64,000 nt of DNA from Candidatus Woesearchaeota archaeon (lineage in GTDB: Archaea > Nanobdellota > Nanobdellia > Woesearchaeales > JACJVW01): assembly GCA_020637435.1 (NCBI GenBank), contig JACJVW010000003.1, forward strand, positions 4,787 to 68,786, read 5' to 3'. Below the pieces are notes generated by a model, which was given only the letters and a program-made list of their open reading frames with translations, did no database searches and was not told the origin of the DNA. Each line of letters starts with the position of its first letter. The stretch's first letter is position 1. Both the position numbers and the translations under genes were made by a program. Below are positions 6,292 to 53,482 of the stretch, piece after piece.

Positions 6292-6386
6292 GGGTCCATA
6301 GCTTAGCCTGGTATAGCATTCGGCTCTTAATTGGGCTTTTCCAAGCTGAAACCGAAAGGTCGGGGGTTCGAATCCCTCTGGACCCA
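6292..6386 (+). tRNA. tRNA-Lys(CTT) with 21-nt intron (6330-6350) at position 37/38
   Basis: GGGTCCA/TGGACCC acceptor stem, TTCGG/CCGAA anticodon stem, CTT at 6326-28, GGTTCGAAT T-loop. Confidence 0.9.
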
Positions 6387-6701
6387 TACCTCTTCTTTAA
6401 GTCTATCTGTCTGAACCCCGGGGTTCGAATTGTTGTGAACGAAGTGAACAACATAGACATGAGCTTGCTCATGGCGTTCCCTCTGGACCCATACCTCTTC
6501 TTTAAGTCTATCTTTCTGAACCTTGGGGTTCGAATTGTTGTGAACGAAGTGAACAACATAGACATGAGCTTGCTCATGGCGTTCCCTCTGGACCCATATA
6601 TCTTCTTTAAGTCTATCTGTCTGAACTTTGGGGTTCGAATTGTTGTGAACGAAGTGAACAACATAGACATGAGCTTGCTCATGGCGTTCCCTCTTGGTCC
6701 A
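6387..6701 (+). repeat. 3 x 105-bp tandem repeat, each ending in the tRNA-Lys 3' end with a hairpin cassette in the T-loop
   Basis: Units 6387-6491, 6492-6596 and 6597-6701, near-identical with a few substitutions. Confidence 0.95.
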
Positions 6702-6912
6702 TATACCCTTATTTTTCTTAATTGTGTCGATAGAAATTATGCCTTAATAAGGAGTCTTCCATATGCATGAAGACTACTACTGCGACCCCCCTGGGAGCAT
6801 ATCCCTACTTCCAGAGCAATAACTTTTTAAAGTATAAAATTCCTACTTATCGGAGAGTAGCAACACTCATTCTAAAAGAGGTGCTGAGTACAGCATAGAG
6901 AGGTACAAACAA

Positions 6913-22069: not shown

Positions 22070-22126
22070 GAAGCATGGAGAATCAAACAGCAGTTAAAAA
22101 GTTTAATAAATGGTCCATAGTTACAG

Positions 22127-22304
22127 CTGCATACGTGCCAGCGTCGCATAATCTGGAGAAGATGAGCAATAGCTCACCTTCGGAGAATATTGCGGTGGTC
22201 TCGAAAGATGAAAACTATGGTTTCGTCACGAAACAACCACTGTCCTTGTGACTTCCCGGTTCAAAAACCTACATAGGCTGAAAGTCCGGGCGCTGGCGTA
22301 GCAG
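22127..22304 (+). ncRNA. candidate structured non-coding RNA of unknown family
   Basis: 14-bp closing helix (22127-43 with 22291-304), several internal stems, TATA-like TTTAATAA at 22102-09, terminator downstream. Confidence 0.55.
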
Positions 22305-31987: not shown

Positions 31988-32117
31988 GCGAGGGTGGCAG
32001 AGCCTGGTCAAATGCGCAGGACTTAAGCGACCTATGATGGAGACAACCAAGCGCGTGCTTGGGTCTAAGTTATCCTGTCCCTTAGTGGGTTCGAGGGTTC
32101 GAATCCCTTCCCTCGCA
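31988..32117 (+). tRNA. tRNA-Leu(TAA) with 44-nt intron (32028-32071)
   Basis: GCGAGGG/CCCTCGC acceptor, CAGGA/TCCTG anticodon stem, long variable arm, perfect BHB (CTTA/TAAG central helix, GACC/GGTC). Confidence 0.95.
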
Positions 32118-32140
32118 TTATTTCTCATTATCCTTCAGTC

Positions 32141-32220
32141 GAACCCTAGGGTTCAAAGTGTTGTGAGCTGATGCGGACAACATAGACATGGATTTTTCCA
32201 TGTCGTACCCTACCCTCGCA
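32141..32220 (+). repeat. tRNA-Leu 3'-end copy with T-loop hairpin cassette
   Basis: GAACCCTAGGGTTC...TGTTG/CAACA-TAGA-CATG/CATG-TCGT-ACCCTACCCTCGCA. Confidence 0.85.
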
Positions 32221-50743: not shown

Positions 50744-51180
50744 AGCCTGGTACACAGACCGAACAAGTTCGTTCTTGCCTTGCTCACTCTCTTCGCAAGG
50801 GATCGTTCGGTTGGCATTGCAATTTCTCCACTATTCTATGTTAAAACTTATAAAGAGATGAACAAGAACTTAGCTATTATGGGCTTGTAGCTCAGCCTGG
50901 TATACAGACCGAACAAGTTCGTTCTTACCTTGCTCATTCCATTCGCAAGGGATCGCTCGGTTGGCATTGCAATTTCTCCACTATTCTATGTTAAAACTTA
51001 TAAAGAGATGAACAAGAACTTAGCTATTATGGGCTTGTAGCTCAGCCTGGTATACAGACCGAACAAGTTCGTTCTTACCTTGCTCACTCTCTTCGCAAGG
51101 GATCGTTCGGTTGGCATTGCAATTTCTCCACTATTCTATGTTAAAACTTATAAAGAGATGAACAAGAACTTAGCTATTAT
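50744..51180 (+). repeat. about 3 x 150-bp tandem repeat of promoter plus tRNA-Ala 5' half with a D-loop hairpin insert
   Basis: GGGCTTGTAG recurs at 50881, 51031 and 51181; the first unit is truncated at 50744. Confidence 0.95.
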
Positions 51181-51450: not shown

Positions 51451-51485
51451 ATGTATCACCCATAGTGCATAAAGATTTGATAGTA

Positions 51486-52223
51486 TTATAATCTTGTGGG
51501 TGTGAGTATGTAGCCTTTGTCAAGGTCGCCGAAGATAGTGCATTTTTTTGGGTTTTTCCAGTAGAAGAAGACGATGTAGGCGCACAACAAAGCATCGATT
51601 TGGTCTTCATAGTCTTTTAATGCCCTGCCCCTCATCCCTATAACTTTTTGCTTGAGAAAATCACACGGAAGCAGTTTGTAGAAGGCATTTTGATATTCTT
51701 TAAAGGCCTGCCACCTGCTTTCATAGGTTCGGCCGGGTTTGTTCTTATAGGGGATTATCTTATCCCTTCTAAAGAGTGTAATGGTGGCGGGATGAGGGAA
51801 TACTTCGTAGAATCTTTTACCTGACTCTTTTGGTTTATTCAGGAAGCTTTGGGTGAACTTCCTCTGTTCCAGGGCAATGCTGATGTCTTCACCTCTAATT
51901 GACCCAGTCCAGCTTGAGAGGCGCTTTCTGTTGGCAGGGTGTGCGCCCGCATGGTGTTTTCTGAATTCTTTGTTGAGGAGCTGTTCTCCCGGGCGGGAAC
52001 CATCTTCGTTGGGTACGATGAGAGGCGCATCGATACCAATAATCGTAGGACTCTTTTGTATGATGCTAAATATGGTCTTAAGGATATTTGCATCGGAATC
52101 ATGGATAGAGATATGGACTATCTGCAAATGCTCATTAATAATTGCGACACCAGATGGGTTCCTGTTGGACCAGGCAAGATCAAGACCTACGAAAAACATA
52201 TACTTAATCCGAATAGCCTTCAT
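51486..52223 (-). CDS. DUF429-family predicted RNase H-like nuclease
   Basis: VGLDLAWS...SGVA, IGIDAPL, EVFPHP, DQIDALLCA. Confidence 0.88.
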   Translation of the reverse strand: MKAIRIKYMFFVGLDLAWSNRNPSGVAIINEHLQIVHISIHDSDANILKTIFSIIQKSPTIIGIDAPLIVPNEDGSRPGEQLLNKEFRKHHAGAHPANRKRLSSWTGSIRGEDISIALEQRKFTQSFLNKPKESGKRFYEVFPHPATITLFRRDKIIPYKNKPGRTYESRWQAFKEYQNAFYKLLPCDFLKQKVIGMRGRALKDYEDQIDALLCAYIVFFYWKNPKKCTIFGDLDKGYILTPTRL

Positions 52224-52309
52224 ATTTATGAATTGTGTGCTGTTGTTTTAAGCCTTAAAACCGAAGTACTATGACAGATTTAATAGTATGATCACAATCT
52301 AAAGGTCAC

Positions 52310-52762
52310 ATGTATGATATTACAGATATACCGGACCTTGGATCTCTTTCGATAGCGTATAAGGGTGCCCCAAATTCTTATCTATTGGCTTATGGCACCG
52401 CCGTATTGATACGTGAAAGTGGATATTCATTAGATGATGCAGCTAAGCTTGTCAGTACATTTCGTGATATGGAGTATGAGCCAAGACAGGTGGCAAGGGG
52501 AGTTGAGATCCTTCTAGGCGAGGATAGGGGTCGAAGCATCGGTGATATCATCGACGTTACGGAGCGTGTAAAGAAATACACTACCTGGTCTTGCAGCCCC
52601 TCGAATATCGCATATGCTGTTGTTGATGCCCTAAAGACGGGAGAGTCTACAGAGCGAATATTACGTGCTATCGACTGCAGAGGGCAGCATACCTCGCGGA
52701 TGCAAAACCTATTCGGTCGTGGCGCAAATGGGGTTGTAAAATACCTCGGTGATTGCCTCTGA
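52310..52762 (+). CDS. hypothetical protein
   Basis: 150-aa ORF. Confidence 0.55.
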   Translation: MYDITDIPDLGSLSIAYKGAPNSYLLAYGTAVLIRESGYSLDDAAKLVSTFRDMEYEPRQVARGVEILLGEDRGRSIGDIIDVTERVKKYTTWSCSPSNIAYAVVDALKTGESTERILRAIDCRGQHTSRMQNLFGRGANGVVKYLGDCL

Positions 52763-52811
52763 TTGAAAAATCTTTTAAATGCATGATTTCTCGCTTTAGA
52801 TTATTGACTTT

Positions 52812-52924
52812 GGGGCTGTAGTGTAGCTTGGACGTAGTAATGCTGCGTATCGCAGCATTGCTAGGGAGCAATATCACTGGCGGTTCGGGGCCGCCCAACC
52901 GGAGTTCGAATCTTCGCAGTCCCA
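52812..52924 (+). tRNA. tRNA-Pro(CGG) with 40-nt D-loop intron (52832-52871)
   Basis: GGGGCTG/CAGTCCC acceptor, GGCGG/CCGCC anticodon stem, CGG at 52886-88; GCTT/GAGC central helix with 3-nt bulges. Confidence 0.88.
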
Positions 52925-53090
52925 TACAAAACCATTTAATTTAAAAATTAGAAAAAGCAAAGGGTCGTAGTAAGTAGCACCACAGCATCTAGATAACGAT
53001 GCTTAGTTTGTTTGCACAAACTGTAAGCTCAGTAGACAAGCTAGTGGGTTTCTTCGCTAGCGCTCATCAAGCCCAGGAAAATCAGATATT

Positions 53091-53243
53091 GGGGCCGTAG
53101 TGTAGCCTGGAGTTGATCACAGCTGTGGTCATCGGGTACCTATCACTGGAGCTCGGGGTTCGTAGCGCAAATGCGCTGTGCTTCCAAGAAAGCACATAAC
53201 GTACGGACAGCTTCTAACCGGAGTTCGAATCTCCGCGGTCCCA
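53091..53243 (+). tRNA. tRNA-Pro(GGG) with D-loop intron (53111-53139) and 50-nt anticodon-loop insertion (53159-53208)
   Basis: GGGGCCG/CGGTCCC acceptor, GGAGC/GCTTC anticodon stem, GGG at 53155-57; position 33 is C. Confidence 0.75.
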
Positions 53244-53482
53244 TATTTCTTCCTCTGGAATCAGCAATAGAACTCCAGAGTTCGAATTGTTGAGGTTTCC
53301 TCAACATAGACACGGTTTTTCCGTGGCGTACTCCCGCGGTCCCATATTTTTTCCTCTGGAATCAGCAATAGAACTCCAGAGTTCGAATTGTTGAGGTTTC
53401 CTCAACATACCTTGTGTTAACAAGGTTCGAGACTTCAGTTGAAGAAGACATGGTTTCTCCGTGGCGTACTCCCGCGGTCCCA
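53244..53482 (+). repeat. two tRNA-Pro 3'-end copies with T-loop hairpin cassettes (101 and 138 bp)
   Basis: Units 53244-53344 and 53345-53482; the second carries extra hairpins. Confidence 0.92.

What the first reader, a model, noticed from the sequence alone, without database searches (positions are those of the whole stretch)
32141..32220. Single tRNA-Leu 3'-end copy carrying the same hairpin cassette
Seen: 23 nt after tRNA-Leu come the perfect palindrome GAACCCTAGGGTTC, then TGTTG..CAACA-TAGA-CATGGA-TTTT-TCCATG-TCGT, then ACCCTACCCTCGCA, matching the Leu 3' end. The stems match the Lys cassette 26 kb away but the loops differ, so this is an independent instance.
Basis: seen in the sequence. 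Interest (0 to 1): 0.7.

Follow-up and report, generated by a model that had tools for sequence, protein, structure and literature searches.

The report
Archaeal tRNA-linked hairpin repeat unit
Just after a leucine tRNA gene in a tiny sludge archaeon lies one copy of a roughly 100-base hairpin cassette that ends in a copy of the tRNA's own tail; the cassette recurs behind seven tRNA genes of this genome and is built like the unexplained "tRNA-linked repeats" known in E. coli since 1978.

Summary
tRNA-Leu(UAA) ends at 32117. After 23 nt come the palindrome GAACCCTAGGGTTC, two hairpins and ACCCTACCCTCGCA.

The likeness to the Lys cassette is real homology: local score 55 against 13.7±2.1 for shuffles and 10-18 for 14 other tRNA flanks.

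The unit belongs to a family private to this genome: about 15 units behind 7 different tRNA genes. It was absent from 400 genomes of the same order and from the genome, viral and metagenome collections.

Each unit is a pseudo T-arm split in the T-loop by a two-hairpin insert. An inverted copy of the T-stem precedes it, and the tRNA's last 13-16 nt plus some trailer follow it. Stems are kept by compensatory changes. There is no promoter of its own, no splicing motif, and no likeness to tRNA bodies or introns.

The E. coli tyrV 178-bp repeat shows the same layout when read the same way.

My best reading (about 40%) is a non-autonomous, att-bounded miniature element. It would spread by recombination inside the tRNA 3' end and grow into tandem arrays.

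Supporting points:
- The tail copies of the Pro and Arg units are hybrids.
- The genome holds a real integrase island with the same type of repeat.

Main rival: a co-transcribed structured trailer RNA. I class it as a new variant of a known but unexplained kind.

The parts
31988..32117 (+). tRNA-Leu(UAA) gene with a canonical 44-nt BHB intron (32028-32071). It is the host gene of the unit and its promoter TATA (cctttaaaaac) lies about 30 nt upstream.
   Evidence: Rfam RF00005 43.8 bits; ARAGORN with introns; BHB with h=6 and h'=6; promoter consensus.
32118..32140 (+). Spacer S: the pyrimidine-rich tRNA trailer. Its 3' end (TCAGTC) is homologous to the Lys spacer (TCTGTCT).
   Evidence: Alignment; Leu(UAA)/Leu(CAA) alignment.
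32141..32154 (+). Perfect palindrome A'|A. The right arm AGGGTTC is the T-stem 5' strand plus TTC of a pseudo T-arm. The left arm GAACCCT is its reverse complement. The inner bases follow the host tRNA's T-stem at every locus.
   Evidence: All six perfect GAAC-type 14-nt palindromes of the genome lie in these units. A strain in run X7 lacks one base at the centre, 32149.
32155..32206 (+). Insert I in the pseudo T-loop: AAAG, hairpin A (32159-32182), TA, hairpin B (32185-32204), then GT. The conserved core is CAACATAGACAYG...CRTGKCGT.
   Evidence: RNA fold -30.8 kcal/mol, z=-3.6. No BHB motif. No Rfam family.
32207..32220 (+). Tail copy B: A60, T-stem 3' strand CCCTA, acceptor 3' strand CCCTCGC and discriminator A. 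TAT, resembling a tRNA trailer, follows it rather than CCA. TAGGGT (32147-32152) can pair with ACCCTA (32207-32212).
6387..6703 (+). Three tandem 105-nt units of the same family behind tRNA-Lys(CUU) (gene at 6292-6386). The left palindrome arm decays from CCCC to CCTT to CTTT with distance from the tRNA, and the last tail copy is degenerate.
53244..53482 (+). Two units behind a multi-intron Pro-like tRNA (53090-53243) that tRNA finders mislabel or miss. The second unit carries an extra 37 nt between CAACATA and AGACA.

Best explanation
The Leu unit is one member of a lineage-specific family of tRNA-linked repeats. [quoted passage not shown]

Proposed working:
- The cassette is the spacer, the T-arm-mimicking palindrome and the two hairpins. 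It sits between an intact, reconstituted tRNA 3' end and a displaced tail copy, as attL and attR sit around an integrated element.
- It reached new tRNA genes by recombination inside the tail, near the border between the T-stem 3' strand and the acceptor strand. It spread preferentially between tRNAs with the same T-arm.
- The recombination was probably catalysed in trans, or in cis by accretion, by a tyrosine integrase of a tRNA-targeting island.
- Tandem arrays then arose by repeated insertion or by unequal exchange between the tail repeats.
- The conserved stems would be what the recombination machinery, or a folded single strand, recognises.

Shown here: the anatomy, the homology among loci, the restriction to this lineage, the hybrid tails, the lack of a promoter, of BHB and of coding capacity, and a real integrase island with the same type of repeat in this genome.

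Inferred: the mobility itself, the enzyme, and the role of the hairpins.
For: - The unit is flanked by the tRNA 3' end and its copy, both followed by trailer-like TAT rather than CCA. The copy therefore derives from the gene, not from mature tRNA.
- The cassette is homologous behind 7 different tRNAs (Lys, Leu-UAA, Leu-CAA, Pro-like, Arg-CCU, Ser-GGA and a degenerate one at Thr-GGU), about 15 units in all. All lie downstream and on the tRNA strand.
- It is private to this genome:
  - The 13-mer gave only chance coding hits in 300 genomes of the order.
  - The covariance model found nothing real in 400 genomes, including 3 of the same family.
  - Nothing turned up in genome, viral or metagenome contigs.
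- Tail copies within 110 nt occur at 10 of 22 tRNAs here, against 3 of 47 in two relatives. Chance predicts about 0.004 per tRNA.
- Hybrid tails: the Pro and Arg(CCU) units share the whole cassette and a derived ACTCCC with an extra C, while the acceptor part is local (GCGGTCCCA versus GCAGGTCCG). The two Leu loci show the same pattern.
- The same genome has a 25.7-kb low-GC island (36% against 45%) at tRNA-Thr(UGU). It carries a tyrosine integrase (PF00589, 3e-19) and a 20-nt direct repeat that starts in the T-loop.
- Stems are kept by compensatory change.
- No TATA box lies inside the units, whereas every independently transcribed tRNA gene examined has one.
Against: - No integrase lies near any unit. 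Only 3 PF00589 genes were found in the assembly, which is 75% complete.
- A circle of 70-105 bp is too small for ordinary excision and integration, so mobilisation would need a helper element or another route.
- Simple integration at a non-cognate tRNA should also leave a hybrid, mismatched tRNA 3' end. That is not seen, so extra conversion steps must be assumed.
- The palindrome arms follow the local T-stem, which an imported arm site would not do by itself.
- No empty site or copy-number polymorphism could be shown. Logan contigs break at the repeats, and relatives share no synteny.
- The E. coli repeat has the same RNA-like clamp design, which could equally point to a function.
Confidence: 0.4

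Rival explanations
1. Functional trailer RNA. The unit is transcribed by read-through from the tRNA promoter and released by tRNA 3' processing. It folds into a three-way junction closed by the pseudo T-stem, with the acceptor 3' strand left single-stranded. It then acts as a small RNA, a processing or termination module, or an insulator that keeps the tail copy from disturbing tRNA folding. This would resemble the way E. coli RrA/B/F and 3'ETS-leuZ work.
For: - Predicted three-way junction with compensatory pairs. The Leu unit folds better than shuffles, z=-3.6.
- The C-to-T decay of the Lys left arm keeps G-U pairs on the tRNA strand only.
- All units lie on the tRNA strand behind weak T-tracts.
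- The E. coli tyrV unit folds with a 10-bp clamp between an antisense piece and the tail.
- Some E. coli TLRs are processed and bind Hfq and CsrA (PMC8144298).
Against: - It is absent from all 400 sampled relatives, including the same family, so it is not a conserved function.
- Copy number varies from 1 to 4 and the distal copies decay.
- No transcript data exist.
- No Rfam family matches.
- There is no 5' acceptor partner that would make a substrate for RNase Z.
- The count of G-U against A-C mismatches is small and is not decisive.
Confidence: 0.25
2. Scar of DNA breakage and repair at tRNA genes, such as a homing-type nuclease or a replication-transcription conflict. A break in or next to the T-arm would be repaired by template switching. 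That would create local inverted duplications (the palindrome) and copy filler (the insert) from another tRNA locus that shares the T-arm.
For: - Palindromes built from local tRNA sequence occur both in these 3' units and in the 5' tRNA-Ala fragments (GAAC-AA-GTTC).
- The arm length is a constant 7+7 whatever the register.
- Subfamilies follow T-arm identity.
- Hybrid tails fit synthesis-dependent repair.
- Earlier unverified notes of this scan describe small nuclease cassettes followed by hairpin-disrupted partial tRNA copies in bacteria.
Against: - The assembly holds no mini GIY-YIG nuclease (only one 565-aa protein), no Y1 transposase and no TnpB.
- The whole spacer-palindrome-insert block is homologous among loci, so the junctions were not made anew at each locus.
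- Stems are conserved by compensation, which is not expected of filler DNA.
Confidence: 0.13
3. Displaced old 3' exon. The A-insert-tail piece would be the original 3' part of the tRNA gene, carrying a T-loop intron. It would have been pushed aside when an intron-less 3' end was brought in by a mobile element or by conversion. This is the tRNA-disruption model of Sugahara et al. 2012 (PMC3293823) run in reverse.
For: - A real tRNA-Ser(CGA) gene in this window has a BHB intron at exactly 59/60 in the T-loop, the position of the insert.
- The model is published for Caldiarchaeum.
Against: - The insert has no BHB. The helix partner should read CGAA but reads TGGC or TGTC (and by eye).
- The gene's own T-arm version (GAGGG/CCCTT) is the one shared with another family of the order (L033), so it is the ancestral version.
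- The insert is unrelated to any intron of this genome.
- This reading does not explain the tandem arrays or the left palindrome arm.
Confidence: 0.1

Closest known systems
E. coli tRNA-linked repeats (TLRs), including the 178-bp tyrT/tyrV repeats and RtT RNA (Egan & Landy 1978; Rudd 1999; Stenum et al. 2021, PMC8144298)
   Same: - The units lie directly behind tRNA genes on the same strand, with 1-5 per locus.
- Each ends in a copy of the tRNA's 3' end.
- Read here, the tyrV unit also holds an antisense piece (GGGGAAGGAT), a sense copy of the T-stem 5' strand plus TTCGA, a hairpin-rich insert of about 66 nt in the T-loop, and then the 19-nt tail. This is the same layout as the archaeal unit.
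- The function and origin of the tRNA-linked TLRs are unknown.
   Different: - There is no sequence likeness, and no Rfam RtT hit.
- The archaeal tail is 13-16 nt without CCA.
- The clamp is the pseudo T-stem (4-6 bp) rather than a 10-bp antisense helix.
- One cassette is shared by seven different tRNAs.
- The host is a DPANN archaeon with intron-rich tRNAs.
att direct repeats of tRNA-targeting integrative elements and their integrase-less derivatives (pNOB8/SSV-type archaeal integration; CIME-type elements of Streptococcus, named from my own knowledge)
   Same: [quoted passage not shown]
- The tRNA stays intact.
- The tail copies are hybrid.
- A real example with an integrase lies in the same genome.
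   Different: - The inserted DNA is only about 75-125 nt and carries no gene.
- It forms tandem arrays of up to four units.
- It carries a T-arm mimic tailored to each tRNA.
- No integrase is linked to it.
Non-canonical archaeal tRNA introns and disrupted tRNA genes (T-loop introns; Sugahara et al. 2012, PMC3293823)
   Same: The insert sits at 59/60, a position where this genome has a true intron. tRNA fragments lie next to intact genes.
   Different: There is no BHB motif. The insert lies in a partial copy, not in the gene. It has no homology to introns.
Hairpin repeat families (REP/BIME, MITEs, IS200/IS605-derived palindromic elements)
   Same: They are short, structured, non-coding and multi-copy, with stems kept and loops free.
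   Different: - The units are found only behind tRNA genes.
- They have no terminal inverted repeats of their own.
- The assembly has no Y1 transposase or TnpB.

Membership tests
tRNA-linked repeats (TLR, E. coli type) | Unit lies immediately downstream of a tRNA or rRNA gene on the same strand | tested here: met
   All units found (about 15) lie downstream of a tRNA gene and on its strand.
tRNA-linked repeats (TLR, E. coli type) | The 3' end of the unit is identical to the 3' end of the upstream gene (18-19 bp in E. coli) | tested here: met
   13-16 nt plus trailer bases, with no CCA because CCA is not encoded here. The Leu unit matches 12 of 14.
tRNA-linked repeats (TLR, E. coli type) | One to five units per locus | tested here: met
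   One to four units per locus.
tRNA-linked repeats (TLR, E. coli type) | Sequence homology to E. coli TLR / RtT (Rfam RF00391) | tested here: not met
   No Rfam hit at the gathering score or at E<=10. The layout alone is shared.
tRNA-linked repeats (TLR, E. coli type) | Transcribed with the tRNA and processed | not testable with these tools
   No RNA runs hold the stretch.
Integrated element bounded by att sites | Direct repeat of the tRNA 3' segment on both sides | tested here: met
   hybrid tails.
Integrated element bounded by att sites | Integrase gene inside or adjacent | tested here: not met
   The three PF00589 genes lie elsewhere. The ORFs around the unit are a CxxCxxCC protein and a methyltransferase.
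Integrated element bounded by att sites | Presence/absence polymorphism (empty site) | tested here: inconclusive
   The unit is present and identical in runs X1 and X2 and present in X7. Contigs break at the repeats, and relatives share no synteny.
Archaeal BHB intron | Bulge-helix-bulge motif at both borders | tested here: not met
   The scan recovers the canonical Leu intron but finds nothing at the insert borders.
MITE / IS-derived element | Terminal inverted repeats and a cognate transposase in the genome | tested here: not met
   The insert and the unit have no inverted repeats at their own ends. No PF01797 match, and no PF07282 match above its cut-off.
Degenerate tandem tRNA gene copy | Residual similarity to the tRNA body upstream of the T-arm | tested here: not met
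   Scores are at most 20 against all tRNA bodies, introns and leaders, which is background level.

The most novel reading that the evidence does not exclude
These units, the E. coli TLR/RtT repeats and the similar cassettes noted in CPR bacteria may be one cross-domain class of self-tailoring elements. A folded nucleic acid (RNA or single-stranded DNA) carrying a mimic of the T-arm would pick tRNA genes as landing sites and copy the local tail. That would make it a structure- or guide-directed insertion mechanism with no described enzyme. Alternatively, it could be a general, undescribed RNA module of tRNA transcription units.
Probability: 0.12. Interest if true: 0.85.

Novelty: new variant of a known kind. 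Interest (0 to 1): 0.5.

Why it matters
tRNA-linked repeats have been known in E. coli since 1978 without an accepted origin or, for the tRNA-linked ones, a function.

This archaeal family shows the same split-T-arm layout in another domain of life. It comes in a young, diversified set: seven tRNAs, subfamilies that follow T-arm identity, hybrid tails, and arrays that decay with distance from the gene. That set gives handles on how such repeats arise and spread.

The units also matter for annotation. They mimic att sites and tRNA fragments, and they sit beside intron-rich tRNAs that standard finders miss.

Tried and rejected
- **Chance similarity:** rejected.
- **Known RNA family:** none found. 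C/D-box and H/ACA readings were rejected by eye, because the motifs are not conserved between loci.
- **BHB intron:** rejected.
- **Degenerate tRNA copy or intron-derived insert:** rejected.
- **IS200/IS605 or TnpB element with a guide-like tail:**
  - No enzyme is present.
  - The intact tRNA would always be self-targeted.
- **GIY-YIG mini-nuclease cassette:** none in the assembly.
- **Casposon-like element or MITE:** no terminal inverted repeats.
- **Integron attC:** the motifs do not fit.
- **Retro-copy of mature tRNA:** rejected, because trailer sequence rather than CCA follows the tails.
- **Coding repeat:** the periods are 105, 94, 101 and 70 nt, and only one is divisible by three.
- **Relatives of the cassette:** searches in genome, viral and metagenome contigs gave only chance coding hits.
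- **Empty site by synteny:** failed, because the neighbouring genes are not shared with relatives.
- **Copy-number variants in public runs:** failed, because assembled contigs break at the repeats.

Full report
**1. What is there**

The window comes from a 1.13-Mb, 45% GC assembly of 5 contigs, 75% complete. Earlier notes place it in Woesearchaeota (DPANN archaea). It occurs in activated-sludge and wastewater metagenomes.

tRNA-Leu(UAA) lies at 31988-32117 and has a canonical bulge-helix-bulge (BHB) intron.
- a 23-nt trailer;
- GAACCCTAGGGTTC (32141-32154);
- AAAG;
- hairpin A (32159-32182);
- TA;
- hairpin B (32185-32204, 8 bp);
- GT and A;
- CCCTACCCTCGCA, ending at 32220, followed by TAT.

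**2. Is it more than chance?**

The Leu flank aligns to the Lys unit with a score of 55. Dinucleotide shuffles give 13.7±2.1 (z=19), and 14 other real tRNA flanks of the genome give 10-18.

The 13-mer CAACATAGACAYG occurs 8 times in the genome, always in these units. In the stems, 95% of cells are paired, against 19-47% when the partners are slid, and four pairs show changes on both sides.

A 14-nt perfect palindrome alone is common: 91 in the genome, 69 expected. But all six of the GAAC type lie in these units.

**3. Anatomy**

Each unit reads as four parts:
- a spacer S;
- an inverted copy A' of the T-stem 5' strand plus TTC;
- A, the T-stem 5' strand plus TTCGAA;
- a two-hairpin insert I ending in KCGT, followed by an A or T and then the T-stem 3' strand, acceptor 3' strand, discriminator and a few trailer bases.

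In other words, it is a pseudo T-arm split at about position 59/60 by the insert. The inner bases of the palindrome follow the host T-stem: GGG for Lys and both Leu, GGAG or AGAG for Pro and Arg. RNAalifold gives a three-way junction closed by the pseudo T-stem. In the Leu unit that stem has six Watson-Crick pairs.

**4. Extent of the family**

The long form lies behind these tRNAs:

| tRNA | Units |
|---|---|
| Lys(CUU) | 3 |
| Leu(UAA) | 1 |
| Leu(CAA) | 3 |
| Pro-like tRNA | 2 |
| Arg(CCU) | 1 |

A short form that keeps only TAGA, hairpin B and CGTA lies behind Ser(GGA) in 4 copies. A degenerate copy lies behind Thr(GGU).

Three more tRNAs (Ser, Trp, Met) have tail copies with other inner sequences. 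So 10 of 22 recognisable tRNAs carry a tail copy within 110 nt. Chance predicts about 0.004 per tRNA.

In two relatives the rate is 3 of 47, and none of those is in the same-family genome.

The cassette itself is private to this genome:
- The 13-mer gave only chance coding hits in 300 genomes of the order.
- A covariance model found nothing real in 400 genomes.
- Nothing was found in genome, viral or metagenome contig collections.

**5. What it is not**
- Not a known RNA family.
- Not a BHB intron. The scan recovers the true Leu intron but finds nothing at the insert borders. Yet a real tRNA-Ser(CGA) in the window has a BHB intron at exactly 59/60.
- Not a decayed tRNA copy, and not derived from an intron.
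- Not an independent gene. Every independently transcribed tRNA gene examined has TTTAWAAA near -30, and the units have none.
- Not a retro-copy of mature tRNA, because trailer sequence rather than CCA follows the tail.
- The assembly has no Y1 transposase, TnpB or mini GIY-YIG nuclease.

**6. Clues to origin**

(a) The genome holds a true integrated island. It spans 25.7 kb at 36% GC and carries type I restriction genes. A tyrosine integrase sits next to tRNA-Thr(UGU). The island is bounded by a 20-nt direct repeat that starts in the T-loop. Recombination at this very segment of tRNA genes therefore happens in this lineage.

(b) The Pro and Arg(CCU) units are homologous along the whole cassette. 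Both share a derived extra C in the T-stem part of the tail, yet each has the acceptor strand and trailer of its own tRNA. The two Leu loci behave alike. The tails are thus hybrids: the left part travels with the cassette and the right part is local. A crossover inside the tail would give this pattern.

(c) Subfamilies follow T-arm identity, not amino-acid identity (Pro with Arg).

(d) In arrays, the copies far from the tRNA are the most decayed.

**7. Comparison with the known**

E. coli has 22 tRNA-linked repeats at ten loci. There are 1-5 per locus, and each ends in 18-19 bp of the upstream gene's 3' end. Those behind tRNAs have no known function (PMC8144298).

I read the tyrV locus of K-12. 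Each 178-bp unit holds:
- an antisense piece GGGGAAGGAT;
- a sense copy of the T-stem 5' strand plus TTCGA;
- a hairpin-rich insert of about 66 nt;
- the 19-nt tail.

It folds with the antisense piece clamped to the tail. This is the same split-T-arm design as the archaeal unit, although the sequences are unrelated.

Earlier unverified notes of this scan describe similar cassettes in CPR bacteria. I did not test those.

The Caldiarchaeum model of tRNA disruption by mobile elements (PMC3293823) is the nearest published idea for fragments with inserts.

**8. Reading**

I favour, at about 40%, a non-autonomous miniature element bounded by att-like tail repeats. It would spread by recombination within the tRNA tail, with a helper integrase or by accretion with a larger element, and would be amplified in tandem.

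The main weaknesses:
- No integrase is linked to any unit.
- The units are very small.
- The palindrome is tailored to each tRNA.
- No polymorphism could be shown.

The rivals:
- A functional read-through trailer RNA, about 25%. It gains from the E. coli parallel and from the G-U-only decay of the Lys arm.
- Repair scars, about 13%.
- A displaced intron-bearing 3' exon, about 10%.

**9. Verdict**

The unit is ordinary within its family, but the family is an unusual archaeal variant of a long-known and unexplained class.

Noticed in passing
window about 22100-22298 (+): A tRNA-Ser(CGA)-like gene missed by ARAGORN and Rfam. It shares its acceptor and T-stem with tRNA-Ser(GGA) and appears to have three introns. 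One is a 19-nt BHB intron in the T-loop at 59/60 (TTCA AA|a...TGAA ag|T CCGGG). A hairpin followed by a T-run comes after the gene.
   Followed up: partly
genome contig C1 66516-92230 (outside the window): A 25.7-kb low-GC island (36% against 45%) is integrated at tRNA-Thr(UGU). It carries a tyrosine integrase (422 aa) next to the tRNA and large ORFs that look like type I restriction-modification and other defence genes (Pfam was run only on the integrase). It is bounded by the 20-nt direct repeat AATCCCTCCAGAGGCTTATT.
   Followed up: partly
window 53090-53243 (+) and 52811-52924 (+): Two adjacent multi-intron tRNAs. One is Pro(CGG). The other is Pro-like, is called Arg by ARAGORN and falls below the Rfam gathering score. 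The second has no TATA box and is probably co-transcribed with the first.
   Followed up: partly
window 50744-51180 (+): Three 150-nt tandem copies of promoter plus tRNA-Ala positions 1-37 lie upstream of the real gene. Each has a 48-nt two-hairpin insert in the D-loop. That insert also holds a GAAC-AA-GTTC palindrome built from neighbouring tRNA-like sequence, and it shares AACAAG(G)TTCG with the 37-nt extension of the Pro and Arg units.
   Followed up: partly
genome contig C2 about 64540-64820 (-): Four tandem 70-nt short-form units (TAGACACGA..TCGTGTCGTA plus tail) lie behind tRNA-Ser(GGA). Each also holds a second, partial tail-like piece (TCCGGGC) at the junction where the Pro and Arg units carry their extension.
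   Followed up: partly
loci L104 and L113 (genome G014), L043 (G010), L045 (G013): Other families of the order have tail copies 70-100 nt behind tRNA-Leu, Thr and another tRNA, with unrelated hairpin spacers. Several again show a complement of the T-loop or T-stem just upstream of the copy, and an A at position 60.
   Followed up: partly
window 51480-52600 (-): An ORF just downstream of tRNA-Ala looks by eye like a DUF429/RNase-H-like protein. It was not run against Pfam.
   Followed up: no
all tRNA genes of the genome: tRNA promoters are very uniform: (A/C)TTTAWAAA centred about 30 nt upstream. Only about 22-25 tRNAs are recognisable in the 75%-complete assembly, and many carry 1-3 introns.
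   Followed up: partly
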